From positions 933 through 64,932 of IMG/VR virus record IMGVR_UViG_3300028854_000020: a stretch of DNA of 64,000 nucleotides, one strand, 5' to 3'. This DNA is from a virus (Duplodnaviria; Caudoviricetes). A program made the translations under genes and the position numbers. A model generated the notes under the pieces. That model was not told the DNA's origin, ran no database searches, and saw only the letters and a list, made by a program, of their open reading frames with translations. The first letter of the stretch is position 1. Each line of letters starts with the position of its first letter. Positions 29,853-35,870 of this stretch are shown here, one piece after another.

Positions 29853-30584
29853 ATGAAGAAAGTTGCAGAAGTTGTAATGCCGGTTTCTTATCCGCGTAAT
29901 GAGGTTTTTGCTGCCGCAATTGCGGCTCAACGAATCAATGGCGAATATGTGAAACGCGCATTTACTCCATATGTTCCCTATCGTCGCGGAAGAACTTATT
30001 ATGCTCCTGTGAACCGAACCCAAACTGATGTTTCGATTTGCAATAAACCATACAATGCTTATCTAATGAAGTCTATTTTGGAATCAAATAAAAGTGATAT
30101 TTTGCCGGAAGATTATGAACAGGGGGAAGTGATTCGTTCATATTTTTGTAGCAAGATCACTGCAATTTTTGATGGAACCGCGCAGGATTTTTTAAAGGGT
30201 GCTATTGAAGCGTCTATTGCTGATGAAATTTCTTCCACTCAACAGTTTGGTCTTATTGCTTCCCTTCCATCGGTATATGAACGCAATATTAAGCGTTCCA
30301 ATGATCGCGCTATTCTATCTGATATTTCTTCAAATAGCGTTCCATTGACATCTGTGATTGGAGACTATGTTAAACTTAATGTCACCGTTCTTGATTCAAT
30401 TTATAAAGAAAAGTATAATTCACACGCAGTTAATGTCAAAGTGAACAATGTATCTGAGAATCATGTATTGTTTTTCTTTGGCAAAGATACATATCAAAAA
30501 GGTTCGTCATATAATATTTCTGGACGAATCAAGTCAAAAGGAAATCAGATAACACAGCTTCATTATGTTAAGAAGATTGATTAA
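29853..30584 (+). CDS. hypothetical phage protein (possible C-terminal OB fold)
   Basis: 243-aa ORF with own promoter and AAGGA RBS. Confidence 0.65.
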   Translation: MKKVAEVVMPVSYPRNEVFAAAIAAQRINGEYVKRAFTPYVPYRRGRTYYAPVNRTQTDVSICNKPYNAYLMKSILESNKSDILPEDYEQGEVIRSYFCSKITAIFDGTAQDFLKGAIEASIADEISSTQQFGLIASLPSVYERNIKRSNDRAILSDISSNSVPLTSVIGDYVKLNVTVLDSIYKEKYNSHAVNVKVNNVSENHVLFFFGKDTYQKGSSYNISGRIKSKGNQITQLHYVKKID

Positions 30585-32161: not shown

Positions 32162-32210
32162 TATTTTAATTCCTCTGTATTATTTATCTATGTTTTTAAA
32201 TTTGGAGATT

Positions 32211-32720
32211 ATGAAAACTTCTAAACAAGAACAACTCGAATCAGTGAATAGAAATGGATATAATATTGTAAATATTAAAAACCCAAGCGAAGATGTTCAA
32301 CTGGCTGCTGTTCAACAAGATGCTCGTGCCATTTGTTACATCAAAAATCCAAGCGAAGCCATGCAATTGGCGGCTGTTAATCAAAATGGTTATGCCATTG
32401 AATATATCAAGAAACCAAGCGAAGCTGTGCAATTGGCTGCGGTTAATCAAGATGGTTATGCCATTAAATATATCAAAAACCCAAGCGAAGATGTTCAATT
32501 GGCTGCGGTTAATCAAAATGGTCATGCCATTCGACGTATCAATAATCCAAGCGAAGATGTGCAATTGGCTGCGGTTAATGAAAATGGTAATGTCATTCGA
32601 CGTATCAATAATCCAAGCGAAGATGTGCAATTGGCTGCGGTTAATCAAAATGGTCATGCCATTGAATATATCAAAAACCCAACAATTTCTGTTCAAATGT
32701 TGGCCAAATTATTGTCTTGA
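32211..32720 (+). CDS. 22-aa repeat protein (DUF4116-like), 7 repeats
   Basis: 66-bp tandem repeats; GGAG RBS; ends VQMLAKLLS with TGA inside TTGACA. Confidence 0.82.
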   Translation: MKTSKQEQLESVNRNGYNIVNIKNPSEDVQLAAVQQDARAICYIKNPSEAMQLAAVNQNGYAIEYIKKPSEAVQLAAVNQDGYAIKYIKNPSEDVQLAAVNQNGHAIRRINNPSEDVQLAAVNENGNVIRRINNPSEDVQLAAVNQNGHAIEYIKNPTISVQMLAKLLS

Positions 32721-32770: not shown

Positions 32771-33121
32771 ATGAAAAACATTTCGATTCAAGTATTGGAA
32801 TTTTTAAAATTGTCATATCACAATAAATGGCTTTGTGATAACAAGATGGCAGTGTATGTGCGAAAAGGTCATCATATTGGATCAGATAATAAAATGCATT
32901 TATTTTTTGATATAGCTTCGGTTGAGGTTAAAGAAAAATTTCAGAAACAAGGAATATTTAAAAATTTTCTTTTGGAATGTCAAAAAATACAATTATATGA
33001 TGGTATTTTTATTGAAAATGTTTTAAATGAACATTTGAAGAAATATTTACAGAGACTTGCCAACGAAGATTCTAGATGGACTGAAAAAGACTCCTGTTTT
33101 ATTTGGGAAATATATACTTGA
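32771..33121 (+). CDS. GNAT-like protein
   Basis: DIASVEVKEKFQKQGIF acetyl-CoA-binding-like motif. Confidence 0.6.
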   Translation: MKNISIQVLEFLKLSYHNKWLCDNKMAVYVRKGHHIGSDNKMHLFFDIASVEVKEKFQKQGIFKNFLLECQKIQLYDGIFIENVLNEHLKKYLQRLANEDSRWTEKDSCFIWEIYT

Positions 33122-33400
33122 CAAATGAATCAAAGTTTGGTATACTATATTTGTGATTAAAAGAAAGGAACAAAATGAGAATTTGGAGTTGTAATCCTAA
33201 AACTGGAAATTTTCCGCCACTGCGAATTGCTTGGAATTTATTTTGGGCAATCCCTGCGTATTTTTCAATGTTTGTTTTTATTTTCTTTTGTTTTATGCAA
33301 GGTGGTCCCACTCGTGCCGAAGATGCGTGGGATAGATTGAAGTAATATTGTTGACAAATGAATCAAAGTTTGGTATACTATATTTGTGATTAAAAGAAAG
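33118..33400 (+). repeat. two identical ~50-bp promoter copies flanking a 56-aa membrane ORF (33175-33345)
   Basis: TTGACAAATGAATCAAAGTTTGGTATACTATATTTGTGATTAAAAGAAAG at 33118 and 33351. Confidence 0.85.
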
Positions 33401-33624
33401 AAAATATGAAGAGAACACCAGATTCAGAACTTAAAGAGGAACTTCGTATTGCTCTTTGTGATGCACAAGATCATTTTAGTAAATGCTCAAATGATCTTGA
33501 TAGAGACGAAGCAAATTATGAATTTTTGAAAGCATTATATACTCGATTTAATCGAATTAAACCATCAACTGAGCCTCAATAAGCTCCACAACAGTTGGCA
33601 AAACCAACGAAAGGAATTATTTTT

Positions 33625-34044
33625 ATGCATATTGATCCAAGAACATTTTCATTTGCTGGCACTAGTATGGACTCCGATGGAGTTTATAAGGCTCGTTTTG
33701 CCAACAAGCTAGACACTCGGCCAAAGGTTATGGAAAAGCTATTTGGTTATACCAATGTTGTTTTTGTTCCGCTTCCAAATCCGATGTCAAAGCTAGATGC
33801 TATTGCATATCTACTTGAAACTAAGCCAGAGGGTGTTAATGTTGATGCTCTGTGTGCCAAGGCTATCTATATTAATACACAGATTGGCAAGATTGATGGC
33901 ACTATTCCGAAGCGTCTCCGTGGTCGCCCTCGTAAGAATCCATTGGTTATTACTTCGCCAGTGGTTGCACCAAATAGTATTGTAAATACTATTGTCAATG
34001 CGGTTCGTGAGGATACAAATCATAAGACATTGACTTCAAATTAA
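33625..34044 (+). CDS. hypothetical protein with AT-hook
   Basis: KRLRGRPRK motif. Confidence 0.65.
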   Translation: MHIDPRTFSFAGTSMDSDGVYKARFANKLDTRPKVMEKLFGYTNVVFVPLPNPMSKLDAIAYLLETKPEGVNVDALCAKAIYINTQIGKIDGTIPKRLRGRPRKNPLVITSPVVAPNSIVNTIVNAVREDTNHKTLTSN

Positions 34045-34080
34045 GTTGACAGTCGGATAAATAAGTGGTATACTTGTTTT

Positions 34081-34513
34081 ATAAGTGAGTATTAATACCA
34101 AAATGTTTAATAAATGAACTGGAGGGTATTTGTATGTAGCGAATAATAATCAAATAAAGGAACATCTGATAATAAATACCAAAAAGTAATATAAGTAAAT
34201 TTATGATATGAAATACCAATACCAAAAAGTAGTAAATTTAGAAGAGTGTTGTAAGTAATACCCTGACCTTGTATAAGCAAGGCAGTAAATCCTAAGATAT
34301 GACTGATAATAAAGCTATCTTAGAGTAAATGTAATAAAATAATTTAGTATACGAATACCAAAAAGTAGTAAATTTGTAGTAAAAATTTAATGATTATAAA
34401 TACCAAAAAGTAGTAAATTTAATGTAATGTAATAAACAATTTATATCAATACCAAAAAGTAATAGGAAATGCGCCGGAGGCTTAAATTTAAAGGCCATAG
34501 ATGGCGCATTTCC
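34081..34513 (+). ncRNA. candidate repeat-containing ncRNA (alternatively an origin with iterons)
   Basis: Promoter TTGACA 34046 / TATACT 34069; AATACCAAAAAGTA at 34175, 34218, 34354, 34399, 34448; closing hairpin GGAAATGCGCC/GGCGCATTTCC. Confidence 0.55.
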
Positions 34514-34536
34514 ATTTCAAAGAAAAGAGAAATAAA

Positions 34537-34869
34537 ATGGCAACGGATATTACAATAACAACAAAAGCAATTATCGATCAGATTGATAAATTTCCAACGC
34601 TCGATGATTGGTGGACTGCGTGTATTCTTACACCGGAAATTAAGGTGTTTTTACCACAACTTTTTGCATTATTATTGCTTGAAAGTGCTATTTTTTATAT
34701 TCATGATTGGTTAGCCGCCATTTTATGTTTCATGATTATCATATCTAAAATATATAATTTTATTGCATCGCTTGCAATAAAATTGACACAGGGATATTTG
34801 CTTCTACAGATTCGCGATTCATATAATAAAGGAATAAAAGATAGCGAATCACTACAAAATAAAATTTAA
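34537..34869 (+). CDS. membrane protein
   Basis: Two hydrophobic segments. Confidence 0.6.
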   Translation: MATDITITTKAIIDQIDKFPTLDDWWTACILTPEIKVFLPQLFALLLLESAIFYIHDWLAAILCFMIIISKIYNFIASLAIKLTQGYLLLQIRDSYNKGIKDSESLQNKI

Positions 34870-34879
34870 AAGGAATAAT

Positions 34880-35176
34880 ATGATTAGCTCTAAATTACAC
34901 ACTATTCAGCAACATGAAGAACTTATTGGAAGTCGTTTCCAAATTGCACATCTTGTAATGCTCAGAACAAAACAATTAATGAATGGCGCACCAATCAGCA
35001 AAGGTATGCCAGAAGAATTTACATGTCAAAAATATGCTGATATTCCGAATCACAGATATCCAAAAGTTGCATTGGAAGAATTGCGCCTCGGCAAGTTAAA
35101 ATGGAAACGTGGTAATGCTCCTGAACCGGCTGCAATTCCATTAATTGAAGTAAATCCTGTTGTTTTTGGAAGTTAA
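34880..35176 (+). CDS. rpoZ: RNA polymerase omega subunit-like protein
   Basis: SRFQIAHLVMLRTKQLMNGA and PKVALEELRLGKL match the two conserved omega blocks. Confidence 0.7.
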   Translation: MISSKLHTIQQHEELIGSRFQIAHLVMLRTKQLMNGAPISKGMPEEFTCQKYADIPNHRYPKVALEELRLGKLKWKRGNAPEPAAIPLIEVNPVVFGS

Positions 35177-35198
35177 AATATTTTAAGTGAGGTTATAA

Positions 35199-35870
35199 AT
35201 GATTTTTTGGGGTGATCCACATGGAAATCTCGATCTTCTTCGTCGAAAGATGAAAGAGCAACATACCAAATTTCCAAATGATACACAAATTTCAGTAGGT
35301 GATAACGGGTTTGGATTCCCCAAATCTCAGAGTATTGTTTTTCCAGATTATTTTAAGATGATTCGTGGAAATCATGATTCACCAGAAGTTTGTCGTGCTC
35401 ACCCAAATTATCTTGGAGACTACGGAACAAAAGAAATTGATGGTTATAAAGTATTCTTTGTTTCGGGTGGGTGGTCAATCGATAGGCAATTTCGCAAAGA
35501 AGGGGTAAGCTGGTGGCCAGATGAAGAATTATCCATTGCAGAATTGAATATTGCTATGGAAGAATATCTTGATGTTAAACCTGACGTAATGTTAAGTCAT
35601 GACGGGCCTACTCCAGCAACACATTATATTCTTAATCGTTATGCTCTTCAAAATAATAATTATTATAGCGAAAGCAGCGTGACACCAACTAGAACCGGTC
35701 AAGCACTTTCAGCTATGTTTAGAGAATATCAACCAAAAATGTGGATTTTTGGTCATTGGCATTGTAATTTTGACAAAATAATCAATGGAACAAGATTTAT
35801 ATGTATTCCAGAACTAGAATCGATTAGGGTTGAAGATATTCTACCACTTGACAAAGATATCAAAATTTGA
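35199..35870 (+). CDS. calcineurin-like metallophosphoesterase
   Basis: GDPHG, VGD, RGNHD, SHDGP, FGHWH. Confidence 0.9.
   Translation: MIFWGDPHGNLDLLRRKMKEQHTKFPNDTQISVGDNGFGFPKSQSIVFPDYFKMIRGNHDSPEVCRAHPNYLGDYGTKEIDGYKVFFVSGGWSIDRQFRKEGVSWWPDEELSIAELNIAMEEYLDVKPDVMLSHDGPTPATHYILNRYALQNNNYYSESSVTPTRTGQALSAMFREYQPKMWIFGHWHCNFDKIINGTRFICIPELESIRVEDILPLDKDIKI

What the first reader, a model, noticed from the sequence alone, without database searches (positions are those of the whole stretch)
34046..34513. Promoter-driven 430-nt non-coding tract with repeated AAUACCAAAAAGUA
Seen: a consensus sigma70 promoter, no ORF, five exact AATACCAAAAAGTA copies (three extend to GTAAATTT) and partial AATACC copies at 34094, 34212 and 34257. 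Neighbouring full copies are 43-49 nt apart with unrelated A-rich linkers, with one 136-nt gap containing two small hairpins, and the tract closes with an 11-bp stem. Inference: a multivalent protein-sponge RNA (CsrB-like logic), a type III antitoxin or CRISPR-repeat mimic, or origin iterons next to an AT-hook gene.
Basis: partly seen in the sequence, partly recalled or inferred. Interest (0 to 1): 0.7.

Follow-up and report, generated by a model that had tools for sequence, protein, structure and literature searches.

The report
Repeated-box leader RNA in peat phage
An uncultured peat-bog phage has expanded a short control sequence ahead of a small membrane-protein gene into a 430-base gene-free stretch with five identical 14-letter boxes, probably a multi-site docking platform for an unknown factor.

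Summary
There are five exact AATACCAAAAAGTA copies, three of them extended to 22 nt, all on the + strand. They sit behind one of about 20 near-identical host-type early promoters, with no + strand ORF. The linkers between copies are no more alike than shuffled sequence, so the core itself is kept.

Seven related phage loci keep the same gene order: AT-hook protein, spacer, small membrane protein, omega-like protein. Their spacer, measured in five of them, is only 43-134 nt. Three of the seven carry a clear single copy of the box and four a diverged word. It always abuts a conserved hairpin, so the array is a lineage-specific amplification.

The "11-bp closing stem" is that hairpin. Its pairing covaries (10 of 14 pairs) and its internal loop fits the kink-turn consensus in 5 of 8 loci. 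No Rfam family matches it.

The tract is present in contigs of 3 of 3 peat metatranscriptome libraries laid. That is consistent with transcription but does not prove it.

My best reading (0.4) is an RNA leader whose unstructured A-rich boxes bind a trans-acting factor multivalently. DNA iterons for the neighbouring AT-hook protein (T4 oriE-like) remain a serious rival (0.25). CsrB, ToxI and CRISPR-mimic membership is not supported. This scan has noted repeat-motif phage RNAs and iteron arrays on other DNA, but not this sequence.

The parts
33625..34044 (+). Gene for a conserved small protein with one AT-hook (RGRPRK). It lies directly upstream of the tract. The true start is probably the ATG at 33625, not the TTG at 33595.
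   Evidence: 8 homologues at 49-100% identity, all starting at the MKID/MHID position. Pfam AT_hook is matched weakly in 5 of 8 members. No fold match.
34046..34074 (+). Host-type (sigma-70-like) early promoter, TTGACA-17-TGnTATACT. The predicted start is near 34081 (inferred).
   Evidence: 11 of 12, with TG. One search finds 20 such promoters on the + strand and 2 on the - strand of the window; this one has a different spacer and is the only one with a long untranslated leader.
34094..34107 (+). Degenerate first box AATACCAAAATGTT. Of the window's copies it is most like the single box of relatives (TAATACCAAGCTGTTTTA, TAACACCAAATTGTTTTA).
34175..34188 (+). Exact box 1. GTAAATTT follows after a 6-nt insert.
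34212..34217 (+). Partial AATACC copy. It is a 6-nt tandem duplication that is absent from one contig of a DNA metagenome run, so it is polymorphic in the population.
   Evidence: table 4: 6 letters left out at 34212 in X14.
34218..34239 (+). Exact box 2 (22-mer AATACCAAAAAGTAGTAAATTT)
34257..34289 (+). Degenerate unit: AATACC, then a small hairpin (34267-34282), then GTAAAT.
34292..34330 (+). Degenerate unit: an 8-bp hairpin (34292-34323) whose loop holds CTGATAATAAA (also found before box 1), then GTAAAT.
   Evidence: (family D6)
34354..34375 (+). Exact box 3 (22-mer)
34399..34420 (+). Exact box 4 (22-mer)
34448..34461 (+). Exact box 5. It lies 3 nt before the conserved hairpin, the same position as the single box of relatives.
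34465..34513 (+). Conserved hairpin with a kink-turn-like internal loop. The outer stem has 11-12 bp. On the 5' side lies (G)GA at 34476-34478. The inner stem is 34479-34483 with 34492-34496, and its loop holds TAAATTTA. On the 3' side lie the AUA bulge (34497-34499), then G34500, A34501 and U34502.
   Evidence: -26.9 kcal/mol, z -5.6. (covariation). (model R1 finds it only at this syntenic site). (K-turn definition).
34524..34869 (+). Shine-Dalgarno-like AAAGAG (34524-34529) and the gene for a conserved 110-aa membrane protein (ATG at 34537) with an invariant WW motif. The omega-like gene (34880-35176) and a metallophosphoesterase gene (35199-35870) follow.
   Evidence: The same order is seen in L016, L017 and L032.

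Best explanation
The tract is the expanded 5' leader of the operon for the membrane protein and the omega-like protein, and possibly also a stand-alone non-coding RNA. It is transcribed from its own host-type early promoter.

In related phages the spacer between the AT-hook gene and the membrane-protein gene holds one short A-rich box directly in front of a conserved kink-turn-like hairpin, which lies about 20-40 nt before the start codon. In this phage the box was amplified to five exact and about three degenerate copies, roughly 45 nt apart, and a consensus promoter was acquired.

The 14-22-nt cores have stayed letter-perfect while the linkers have randomised, and the cores are predicted to be unstructured. 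I therefore infer that each core is a binding site on the RNA for one trans-acting factor, most likely a protein that reads single-stranded A-rich RNA. The array would then either load that factor cooperatively next to the hairpin to control the downstream genes, or titrate it away from other targets (sponge logic).

Shown: the repeats, the promoter class, conservation of the box-plus-hairpin module, covariation of the hairpin, and presence in RNA libraries.
Inferred: the transcription start, that the RNA and not the DNA is read, and that a factor binds. The factor's identity is unknown.
For: (1) Selection on the core. Five copies are identical over 14 nt and three over 22 nt. Flanks are no more alike than shuffles: 0.62 vs 0.59 +/- 0.03 upstream, 0.55 vs 0.58 +/- 0.04 downstream.

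(2) The promoter is credible. It is one of 20 TTGACA-N15-19-TATA[AC]T sites on the + strand against 2 on the - strand. For 16 of the other 19, the next ORF of 40 aa or more starts 6-59 nt after the -10. For two more an ATG follows at about 24 and 8 nt by eye. One runs off the window. Only P34046 has a 426-462-nt leader.

(3) Strand bias. All copies are on the transcribed strand. The tract is 48% A and 9% C on that strand. By recalled knowledge, C-poor RNA is a poor Rho substrate.

(4) The ancestral module looks like RNA. In 7 related loci the box lies 0-3 nt before a hairpin. In the 5 kink-turn-bearing sequences that hairpin has 98.6% of cells paired, and 10 of 14 pairs changed on both sides. 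0 of 500 shuffles reach this, and slid controls give 26-35% paired.

(5) The cores fold to nothing. MFE is 0 for 3 of 5 unit segments and -2.2 and -2.4 kcal/mol for the other two, none better than shuffles.

(6) Presence in RNA libraries. Six metatranscriptome runs hold 26-55% of the sampled words of 33600-35200. All 3 RNA runs laid have contigs on the tract, and one contig (X16, 34391-34840) bridges from box 4 across the hairpin into the gene (table 8).

(7) Dosage. Promoter gain plus box amplification both raise the number of boxes per cell, which fits a dosage-dependent function (inference).
Against: No binding factor is identified. The record encodes no Hfq, CsrA, RegA, L7Ae or ToxN family protein. 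It is only about 64% complete.

Presence in an RNA library does not prove transcription, because DNA can be present in it. Contigs give no strand, no ends and no levels (tool notes).

The array is unique to this lineage, so there is no comparative test of the repeats themselves.

A conserved DNA-binding-type (AT-hook) gene sits next door in all close relatives. AAATTT, a classic AT-hook target by recall, is enriched in the tract: 6 copies against 1.05 in shuffles. Four of the five exact copies fall within 0.1 turn of one helical face at 10.5 bp per turn. Both points favour a DNA reading, although the phasing vanishes at 10.4 or 10.6 bp per turn.

The small upstream hairpin that some relatives can form around the box shows no compensatory change.
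Confidence: 0.4

Rival explanations
1. DNA iterons. The boxes, with the adjacent AAATTT minor-groove sites, are binding sites on double-stranded DNA for a phage protein. The obvious candidate is the AT-hook protein encoded immediately upstream. They would form an origin of replication activated or primed by the early promoter (T4 oriE-like), or another nucleoprotein assembly site such as a partition-like or titration array.
For: Exact direct repeats with diverged spacers are the iteron signature. The tract is 77% A+T.

An early promoter fires into it. T4 oriE likewise combines an early-mode promoter with a cluster of 12-nt direct repeats (PMC3016281, passages read).

The AT-hook gene is linked to the box in all 7 syntenic relatives. 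AAATTT occurs 6 times and the palindrome TAAATTTA 4 times in 468 nt, against 1.05 and 0.13 in shuffles.

There is a weak 10.5-bp periodicity of AA: 21 of 500 shuffles reach it, uncorrected for the 10 periods tried.
Against: Relatives at 52-65% protein identity have one box at most, not an array, and the box always abuts an RNA-type covarying hairpin.

Spacing is uneven (43, 136, 45, 49). The phase agreement disappears at 10.4 or 10.6 bp per turn.

Cumulative GC skew rises steadily through the site with no turn.

The primase and helicase genes lie about 15 kb away. No initiator-like fold was found for the AT-hook protein.

Degenerate units keep AATACC and GTAAAT while inserting hairpins of 16-32 nt between them. 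A rigid DNA-binding dimer would not tolerate that.
Confidence: 0.25
2. Cis-only leader. The A-rich unstructured tract simply acts in cis on the downstream mRNA, as a ribosome or S1 landing pad, an mRNA stabiliser or a Rho-resistant spacer. The repeats are products of replication slippage kept by drift or gene conversion, with no dedicated factor counting the copies.
For: A contig in an RNA library bridges tract and gene. A 6-nt slippage polymorphism exists at 34212. Relatives manage with a spacer of 43-134 nt. The composition is A-rich and C-poor.
Against: Slippage or drift does not explain letter-perfect 14-22-nt cores amid linkers that are as different as shuffles. The other 18 promoters of this class that can be judged inside the window need no such leader.
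Confidence: 0.2
3. Molecular mimic of a host immunity RNA. The tract would be a pseudo-antitoxin of a type III toxin-antitoxin system (as in phage escape from ToxIN), or a decoy of CRISPR repeats.
For: The layout of promoter, repeats of about 45 nt, hairpin and gene recalls toxI-toxN (recalled architecture). The cores contain AAAU, the recalled ToxN cleavage context.
Against: Units are not near-identical tandem repeats. No Rfam match at E up to 10 falls on the tract. No ToxN-family protein is in the record, and the downstream gene is a conserved membrane protein that relatives carry with one box at most. A two-core search of 185,579 species genomes gave 71 stretches, and none carries the extended core. 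The 14-22-nt core is shorter than usual CRISPR repeats (recalled).
Confidence: 0.05

Closest known systems
Bacteriophage T4 oriE: early-mode promoter plus a cluster of 12-nt direct repeats ('iterons')
   Same: Both lie in the early region of a large lytic-type phage. Both have a host-RNAP early promoter next to a cluster of short direct repeats. In both the role of the repeats is unproven. [quoted passage not shown]
   Different: The T4 repeats are evenly spaced and recur in syntenic regions of close relatives. Here spacing is 43-136 nt and relatives have one copy at most. There is no sequence similarity. No RepEA or RepEB analogue was identified.
CsrB/RsmY/RsmZ-type protein-sponge RNAs
   Same: The logic is the same: one transcript carrying many copies of a short, exposed motif, so that it can bind many copies of one protein.
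   Different: There is no GGA motif in hairpin loops. No Rfam match falls on the tract. No CsrA is encoded in the record. The motif here is a 14-22-nt A-rich single-stranded word.
ToxI antitoxin RNA of type III toxin-antitoxin systems, and phage pseudo-ToxI (recalled; no paper read)
   Same: A promoter, then repeats of a few tens of nt, then a hairpin, then a gene.
   Different: ToxI units are near-identical head-to-tail repeats processed by an adjacent ToxN endoribonuclease. Here only the core is conserved, and the next gene is a membrane protein conserved in relatives that lack the array.
K-turn stem-loop in the 5' leader of archaeal L7Ae mRNA (translational autoregulation)
   Same: Both are small hairpins in a 5' leader, close to the ribosome-binding site, whose internal loop fits the K-turn consensus. 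Sources: abstract of PMC6298567 seen in the listing, and the K-turn definition in PMC4316175, passages read.
   Different: The setting here is a phage of bacteria. No L7Ae-family gene is in the record. By the published 3b.3n rule (abstract of PMC4382518), these sequences (3n = G, or 3b = C) should fold in metal ions alone, unlike the L7Ae leaders described as protein-dependent. Binding was not tested.

Membership tests
CsrB/Rsm-type sponge RNA | Many GGA motifs exposed in hairpin loops or single strands | tested here: not met
   The repeated core AATACCAAAAAGTA(GTAAATTT) has no GGA, and the cores are not in hairpin loops.
CsrB/Rsm-type sponge RNA | Match to an Rfam CsrB/Rsm covariance model | tested here: not met
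   cmscan of 33000-35500 at E up to 10 gave only two unrelated matches, both outside the tract.
Type III antitoxin RNA (ToxI-like) | Near-identical head-to-tail repeats (defining feature recalled) | tested here: not met
   Only 14-22 nt of each 43-49-nt unit is conserved. The linkers equal shuffles.
Type III antitoxin RNA (ToxI-like) | Adjacent ToxN/AbiQ-family endoribonuclease gene | tested here: not met
   The downstream protein has no Pfam or PHROG hit. PF13958 is absent from the record at E up to 1. The record is 64% complete.
CRISPR-repeat mimic (RNA anti-CRISPR) | The unit matches the CRISPR repeat of a host array | tested here: inconclusive
   A two-core pattern search of species-representative genomes gave 71 stretches, none with the extended core. 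The host is unknown and only exact words were searched.
Iteron-type phage origin (T4 oriE-like) | Cluster of short direct repeats beside an early promoter | tested here: met
   The T4 description comes from PMC3016281.
Iteron-type phage origin (T4 oriE-like) | Even spacing, and similar iterons in syntenic regions of relatives | tested here: not met
   Spacing is 43, 136, 45 and 49 nt. The 7 syntenic relatives have one box at most.
Iteron-type phage origin (T4 oriE-like) | Replication starts there | not testable with these tools
   Only contigs of runs were available, so there is no depth profile. GC skew shows no turn, which is weak evidence in a co-oriented phage.
Kink-turn RNA motif (closing hairpin) | A three-nucleotide bulge followed on its 3' side by G.A and A.G pairs, with a canonical helix 5' of the bulge | tested here: met
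   The window, L017, L036, L034 and L032 (5 of 8 aligned loci) read: inner stem, AUA, G, A, N, outer stem, opposite (N)GA, inner stem. L016 is degenerate, and L033 and L035 are plain hairpins. The definition comes from PMC4316175.
Kink-turn RNA motif (closing hairpin) | Both flanking helices real (covariation) | tested here: met
   10 of 14 pairs changed on both sides, 98.6% paired, 0 of 500 shuffles as high. There are only 5 sequences.
Kink-turn RNA motif (closing hairpin) | Adopts the kinked fold or binds an L7Ae-family protein | not testable with these tools
   No PF01248 in the record. Folding needs a bench test.
Intrinsic terminator (closing hairpin) | G+C-rich stem followed by a T run | tested here: not met
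   0 terminator-like sites in 33000-35500. In the window the stem is followed by ATTTCAAAG. Only L016 and L033 have TTTT.

The most novel reading that the evidence does not exclude
A lytic phage has turned a one-copy protein-binding box of a kink-turn-containing mRNA leader into a promoter-driven, multivalent decoy RNA. By carrying six to eight copies of an exposed A-rich word, this RNA would sequester a host (or phage) single-strand RNA-binding protein during early infection. It would be a phage-encoded protein sponge of a new sequence class, caught next to its one-copy ancestors.
Probability: 0.2. Interest if true: 0.75.

Novelty: new variant of a known kind. Interest (0 to 1): 0.5.

Why it matters
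Two things come out of this.

First, there is a clean natural example of how a repeat array arises. Relatives carry one box, where a box is recognisable at all. This phage carries five exact copies plus degenerate ones and a new promoter, and a slippage polymorphism is still segregating. That gives a direct handle on what the box binds: pull down with one word, and compare one-copy and multi-copy phages.

Second, the closing stem is a small, covarying, kink-turn-like hairpin. It is conserved in front of the same membrane-protein gene in several uncultured large phages and matches no Rfam family. K-turn operators are known from archaeal and eukaryotic leaders and from riboswitches, but I found none described for phage leaders. 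That rests on one full-text search, where I saw only the listing and abstracts.

If the array is instead a DNA iteron set for the AT-hook protein, it would identify the function of a protein family that currently has no annotation and no recognisable fold.

Tried and rejected
Known RNA families. cmscan of 33000-35500 at E up to 10 and of five relatives' loci at E up to 1 put nothing on the tract or the hairpin.

Known phage genomes. blastn of 33500-35500 against 50,697 phage records gave no match.

The same array elsewhere. The two-core 14-mer pattern gave 0 stretches in IMG/VR. A looser three-core pattern gave 25 stretches. Most are open reading frames with tandem coding repeats and a few are unrelated perfect tandem repeats; none is related. 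The two-core 11-mer pattern in species genomes gave 71 stretches, none with the extended core. This scan's notes hold no look-alike stretch.

Relatives by single proteins. Searches with P0001 and P0002 found none. Alignments were needed. The RNA ligase loci (L006-L015) were scanned with model R1 only.

The Fur 7-1-7 word at up to 3 mismatches hits the left flank plus half-core of 2 of 5 copies. The window total is 32 against 21.6 +/- 5.1 expected, so I rejected it.

Similarity of the core to the conserved spacer of the early promoters. It is limited to ACCAAA. TACCAAA occurs 0 times in promoter cassettes and AACCAAA 0 times in the tract. Not pursued.

Helical phasing and A-tract periodicity. 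Marginal and sensitive to the assumed pitch.

Kissing between the TAAATTTA in the hairpin loop and the same palindrome in units 1, 2 and 4. Duplexes are only -3.3 to -4.7 kcal/mol at 37 C. Kept as a note only.

AT-hook protein. Nothing useful came from the PDB profile search (best E 1.1), Foldseek PDB (0 matches at E <= 0.001), VIA wide (best Z 3.8) or the Atlas.

RNA-binding or partner proteins in the record. L7Ae, RegA, ToxN, Hfq and CsrA were not found. The record is incomplete.

AATACC triplet in L019, L020 and L031 with spacing of 47 and 136 nt. It lies in coding sequence and is a coincidence.

Read laying, items not used as evidence. Contig depth on the tract was higher than on flanking contigs in 2 of 3 RNA runs (44.7 and 31.4 against 2-13), while the DNA run was flat. 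The tool states that contig depth cannot rank parts. Some bins lacked cover in the RNA runs (X15 20, X16 24 and X17 13 of 30 bins covered, against 30 of 30 in the DNA run). Absence of cover proves nothing. Contig breaks at 34383 and 34420 coincide with the repeats and are assembly effects. An odd 21-nt piece at the head of one X17 contig was left uninterpreted.

Supplementary files of papers were not consulted.
Full report
WHAT IS THERE

The window is 64,000 of the 64,932 bases of an IMG/VR virus record judged about 64% complete. It is A+T-rich, at 28-40% G+C per 2-kb window. It carries six tRNA genes. It also encodes an Rnl1-type RNA ligase, a ribonucleotide reductase, a primase, a DnaB-like helicase and a tRNA nucleotidyltransferase. 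Genes run almost entirely on the + strand.

Fourteen runs labelled DNA with a query ('DNA?': guessed) and six metatranscriptome runs, all labelled peat metagenome, hold the stretch 33600-35200 or part of it.

- The promoter TTGACA-17-TATACT with an extended -10 TG lies at 34046-34074.
- There is no + strand ORF of 30 aa or more up to 34501.
- There are five exact AATACCAAAAAGTA copies plus a 2-mismatch copy. That gives 7 matches at up to 2 mismatches in the window against 2.36 expected, and 0 of 100 shuffles reach 7.
- Three copies extend to a 22-mer.
- Spacing is 43, 136, 45 and 49 nt.
- The closing stem is 11 bp and perfect.

THE CORE IS SELECTED, THE LINKERS ARE NOT

The 20 nt before the cores, and the linker after position +22, are no more alike than composition-matched shuffles: 0.62 vs 0.59 +/- 0.03, and 0.55 vs 0.58 +/- 0.04. 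Recent duplication would leave the linkers alike, so the perfect 14-22-nt cores are being maintained.

The 136-nt gap is not empty. It holds two degenerate units. In one, AATACC (34257) and GTAAAT (34286) are separated by a small hairpin. The other, at 34292-34330, has CTGATAATAAA, the word that also precedes box 1, in the loop of an 8-bp hairpin that is followed by GTAAAT. AGTAAAT occurs 6 times in the tract, out of 19 on the + strand of the whole window. The array therefore has about eight units of 36-53 nt.

The partial AATACC at 34212 is a 6-nt duplication that one contig of a DNA run lacks, so slippage is still going on.

THE PROMOTER IS ONE OF A CLASS, BUT ITS LEADER IS UNIQUE

The window has 20 TTGACA-N15-19-TATA[AC]T sites on the + strand and 2 on the - strand. 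Most share a conserved spacer (consensus about AAnnAAyCAAAnTTTG) that P34046 lacks.

For 16 of the 19 others, the next ORF of 40 aa or more starts 6-59 nt after the -10. For two more an ATG follows at about 24 and 8 nt by eye. One runs off the window. Only P34046 is followed by 426 nt without a possible start, or 462 nt to the ATG at 34537.

RELATIVES SHOW WHERE THE ARRAY CAME FROM

The upstream gene encodes a conserved protein with one AT-hook. It has 8 homologues at 49-100% identity, and the start is probably the ATG at 33625. An alignment of these brought in 16 viral and 25 metagenome loci. I examined 26 of them, leaving out duplicates of the same contig.

Seven loci keep the downstream membrane-protein gene: L016, L033, L032, L036, L034, L017 and L035. 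Where the locus reaches far enough, the omega-like and phosphoesterase genes are kept too. The script's spacer figure is reliable for five of the seven and is 43-134 nt. In L017 it reads 250 nt only because an in-frame TGA splits the gene, and L035 gave no figure. In the window the distance from the stop codon at 34044 to the ATG at 34537 is 492 nt.

A box related to the repeat stands once in each spacer, directly before a strong hairpin:
- TAATACCAAGCTGTTTTA in L016 and L033
- TAACACCAAATTGTTTTA in L017
- more diverged AAAACAyC... words in the other four

In the window, the first degenerate box (34094, AATACCAAAATGTT) resembles this ancestral form. The last exact box (34448) occupies the ancestral position, 3 nt before the hairpin. 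The array is therefore a lineage-specific amplification of one part of a conserved two-part module, and it came with a new consensus promoter.

No other array of this kind was found:
- 0 stretches for the two-core 14-mer in IMG/VR
- 25 unrelated stretches for a loose three-core pattern
- 71 stretches in species genomes, none with the extended core

THE CLOSING STEM IS A CONSERVED, KINK-TURN-LIKE HAIRPIN

Across eight loci the outer stem covaries, with 6 of 10 pairs changed on both sides. In the five loci with the full form (window, L017, L036, L034, L032):
- 98.6% of cells pair
- 10 of 14 pairs have changes on both sides
- 0 of 500 shuffles reach this
- slid controls pair at 26-35%

These five share an asymmetric internal loop. 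On the 5' side it reads (N)GA next to a 3-5-bp inner stem capped by UAAA, AAUA, GAAA or GCAA (an 8-nt loop in the window). On the 3' side it reads AUA, G, A, N.

This is the published K-turn pattern: a three-nucleotide bulge followed on the 3' side by G.A and A.G pairs, with the canonical helix 5' of the bulge (PMC4316175, passages read). The 3b.3n positions are U.G, A.G, A.G, G.G and C.C. All fit the rule '3n = G or 3b = C' for K-turns that fold in metal ions alone (abstract of PMC4382518, seen).

L016 keeps only AUAGAG in a plain loop. L033 and L035 are simple hairpins. A covariance model of the hairpin found it in 443,242 bases only at this syntenic site, in 6 loci, and nowhere else in the window. 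Rfam has no match. It is not a terminator by the scan.

RNA OR DNA?

For RNA:
- The promoter class is real and all copies lie on the transcribed strand.
- The sense strand is 48% A and 9% C.
- The cores are predicted to be unstructured: MFE is 0 in 3 of 5 segments, and none is better than shuffles.
- The box is welded to a structure that only makes sense as RNA.
- Degenerate units tolerate hairpin insertions between AATACC and GTAAAT.
- Contigs of all 3 RNA libraries laid lie on the tract, and one bridges box 4, the hairpin and the gene.

The tool warns that presence in an RNA library is not proof of transcription, and that contigs give no strand, ends or levels.

For DNA:
- An AT-hook gene is the constant neighbour.
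- AAATTT (6 against 1.05) and the palindrome TAAATTTA (4 against 0.13; 8.5 per kb against 0.14 per kb elsewhere) are enriched.
- Four of the five exact copies share a helical face at 10.5 bp per turn, but not at 10.4 or 10.6.
- The AA periodicity at 10.5 bp is marginal: 21 of 500 shuffles reach it, with ten periods tried.
- T4 oriE is a precedent for an early promoter beside short direct repeats whose role is still undefined (PMC3016281).

MECHANISM

I commit to the RNA reading at 0.4. The tract is the leader of the membrane-protein and omega-like operon. Each exposed core binds one copy of a factor that relatives recruit once beside the K-turn hairpin. Amplification plus a strong promoter makes the RNA a multivalent loading platform or sponge. 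The factor is unknown. The record encodes no Hfq, CsrA, RegA, L7Ae or ToxN family protein, and the AT-hook protein has no recognisable fold.

The rivals are DNA iterons for the AT-hook protein (0.25), a cis-only leader with slippage repeats (0.2), and an immunity-RNA mimic (0.05).

COMPARISON AND NOVELTY

It works like a sponge or an iteron array, but it is a member of none of the families tested. The CsrB, ToxI and intrinsic-terminator features are not met. The oriE-like features are half met. The K-turn features are met at the sequence and covariation level.

I found no description of a K-turn operator in a phage leader in one full-text search (listing and abstracts only). This scan has earlier notes of repeat-motif phage RNAs and iteron arrays on other genomes, but no look-alike of this sequence.

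I rate it a new variant of a known kind, with interest 0.5. The anatomy and its evolutionary origin are clear and unusual. The function is still inferred.

Noticed in passing
window 1259-63744 (20 sites; e.g. 29798, 32717, 33118, 33351, 57882): About 20 near-identical early promoter cassettes. Beyond the -35 and -10 they share a conserved spacer (about AAnnAAyCAAAnTTTG) and often the same short leader (aatcttgtagtcaaagaaaggaac). A conserved spacer suggests either cassette duplication or a factor that binds between the hexamers. P34046 lacks it.
   Followed up: partly
window 34483-34490, and 34196, 34233, 34414: The palindrome TAAATTTA sits in the loop of the closing hairpin and in three repeat units. 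Relatives have tetraloops there instead. Loop-to-unit pairing is possible but weak (-3.3 to -4.7 kcal/mol at 37 C).
   Followed up: partly
L017 5635-5997: In this 360-kb relative, the membrane-protein homologue has an in-frame TGA exactly at the first of the two invariant Trp codons (LDA*WH against DDWW). The three neighbouring genes that I read through have no internal stop (which stop codon ends them was not looked at). It could be a point mutation, readthrough or local recoding.
   Followed up: partly
window 34880-35176: The 98-aa protein two genes downstream matches RNA polymerase Rpb6/omega weakly (E 2.9e-5, 24.4 bits, just under the cut-off of 26). It is conserved at 53-64% identity in L016, L017 and L032, always after the membrane-protein gene.
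   Followed up: partly
window 33625-34044 and relatives (alignment A1): The AT-hook protein family is a globular N-terminal domain of about 100 aa, then RGRPRK, then a C-terminal helix. It has no Pfam domain beyond the hook and no structural neighbour (best VIA Z 3.8). It occurs in contigs of up to 372 kb.
   Followed up: yes
window 32190-32720, 29853-30584 and the starts after promoters 8016, 29503, 57323, 63716: Several early genes begin with the same N-terminal words (MNEKITIQCRNRSNWLLL-like). One carries DUF4116 repeats. This is a multi-copy early gene family spread with the promoter cassettes.
   Followed up: no
L069 374-560 (IMG/VR record of 6,298 nt): An unrelated small element has four perfect 44-nt tandem repeats in a stretch without a long open frame. 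It surfaced only because it shares the word TACCAAA..GT.
   Followed up: no
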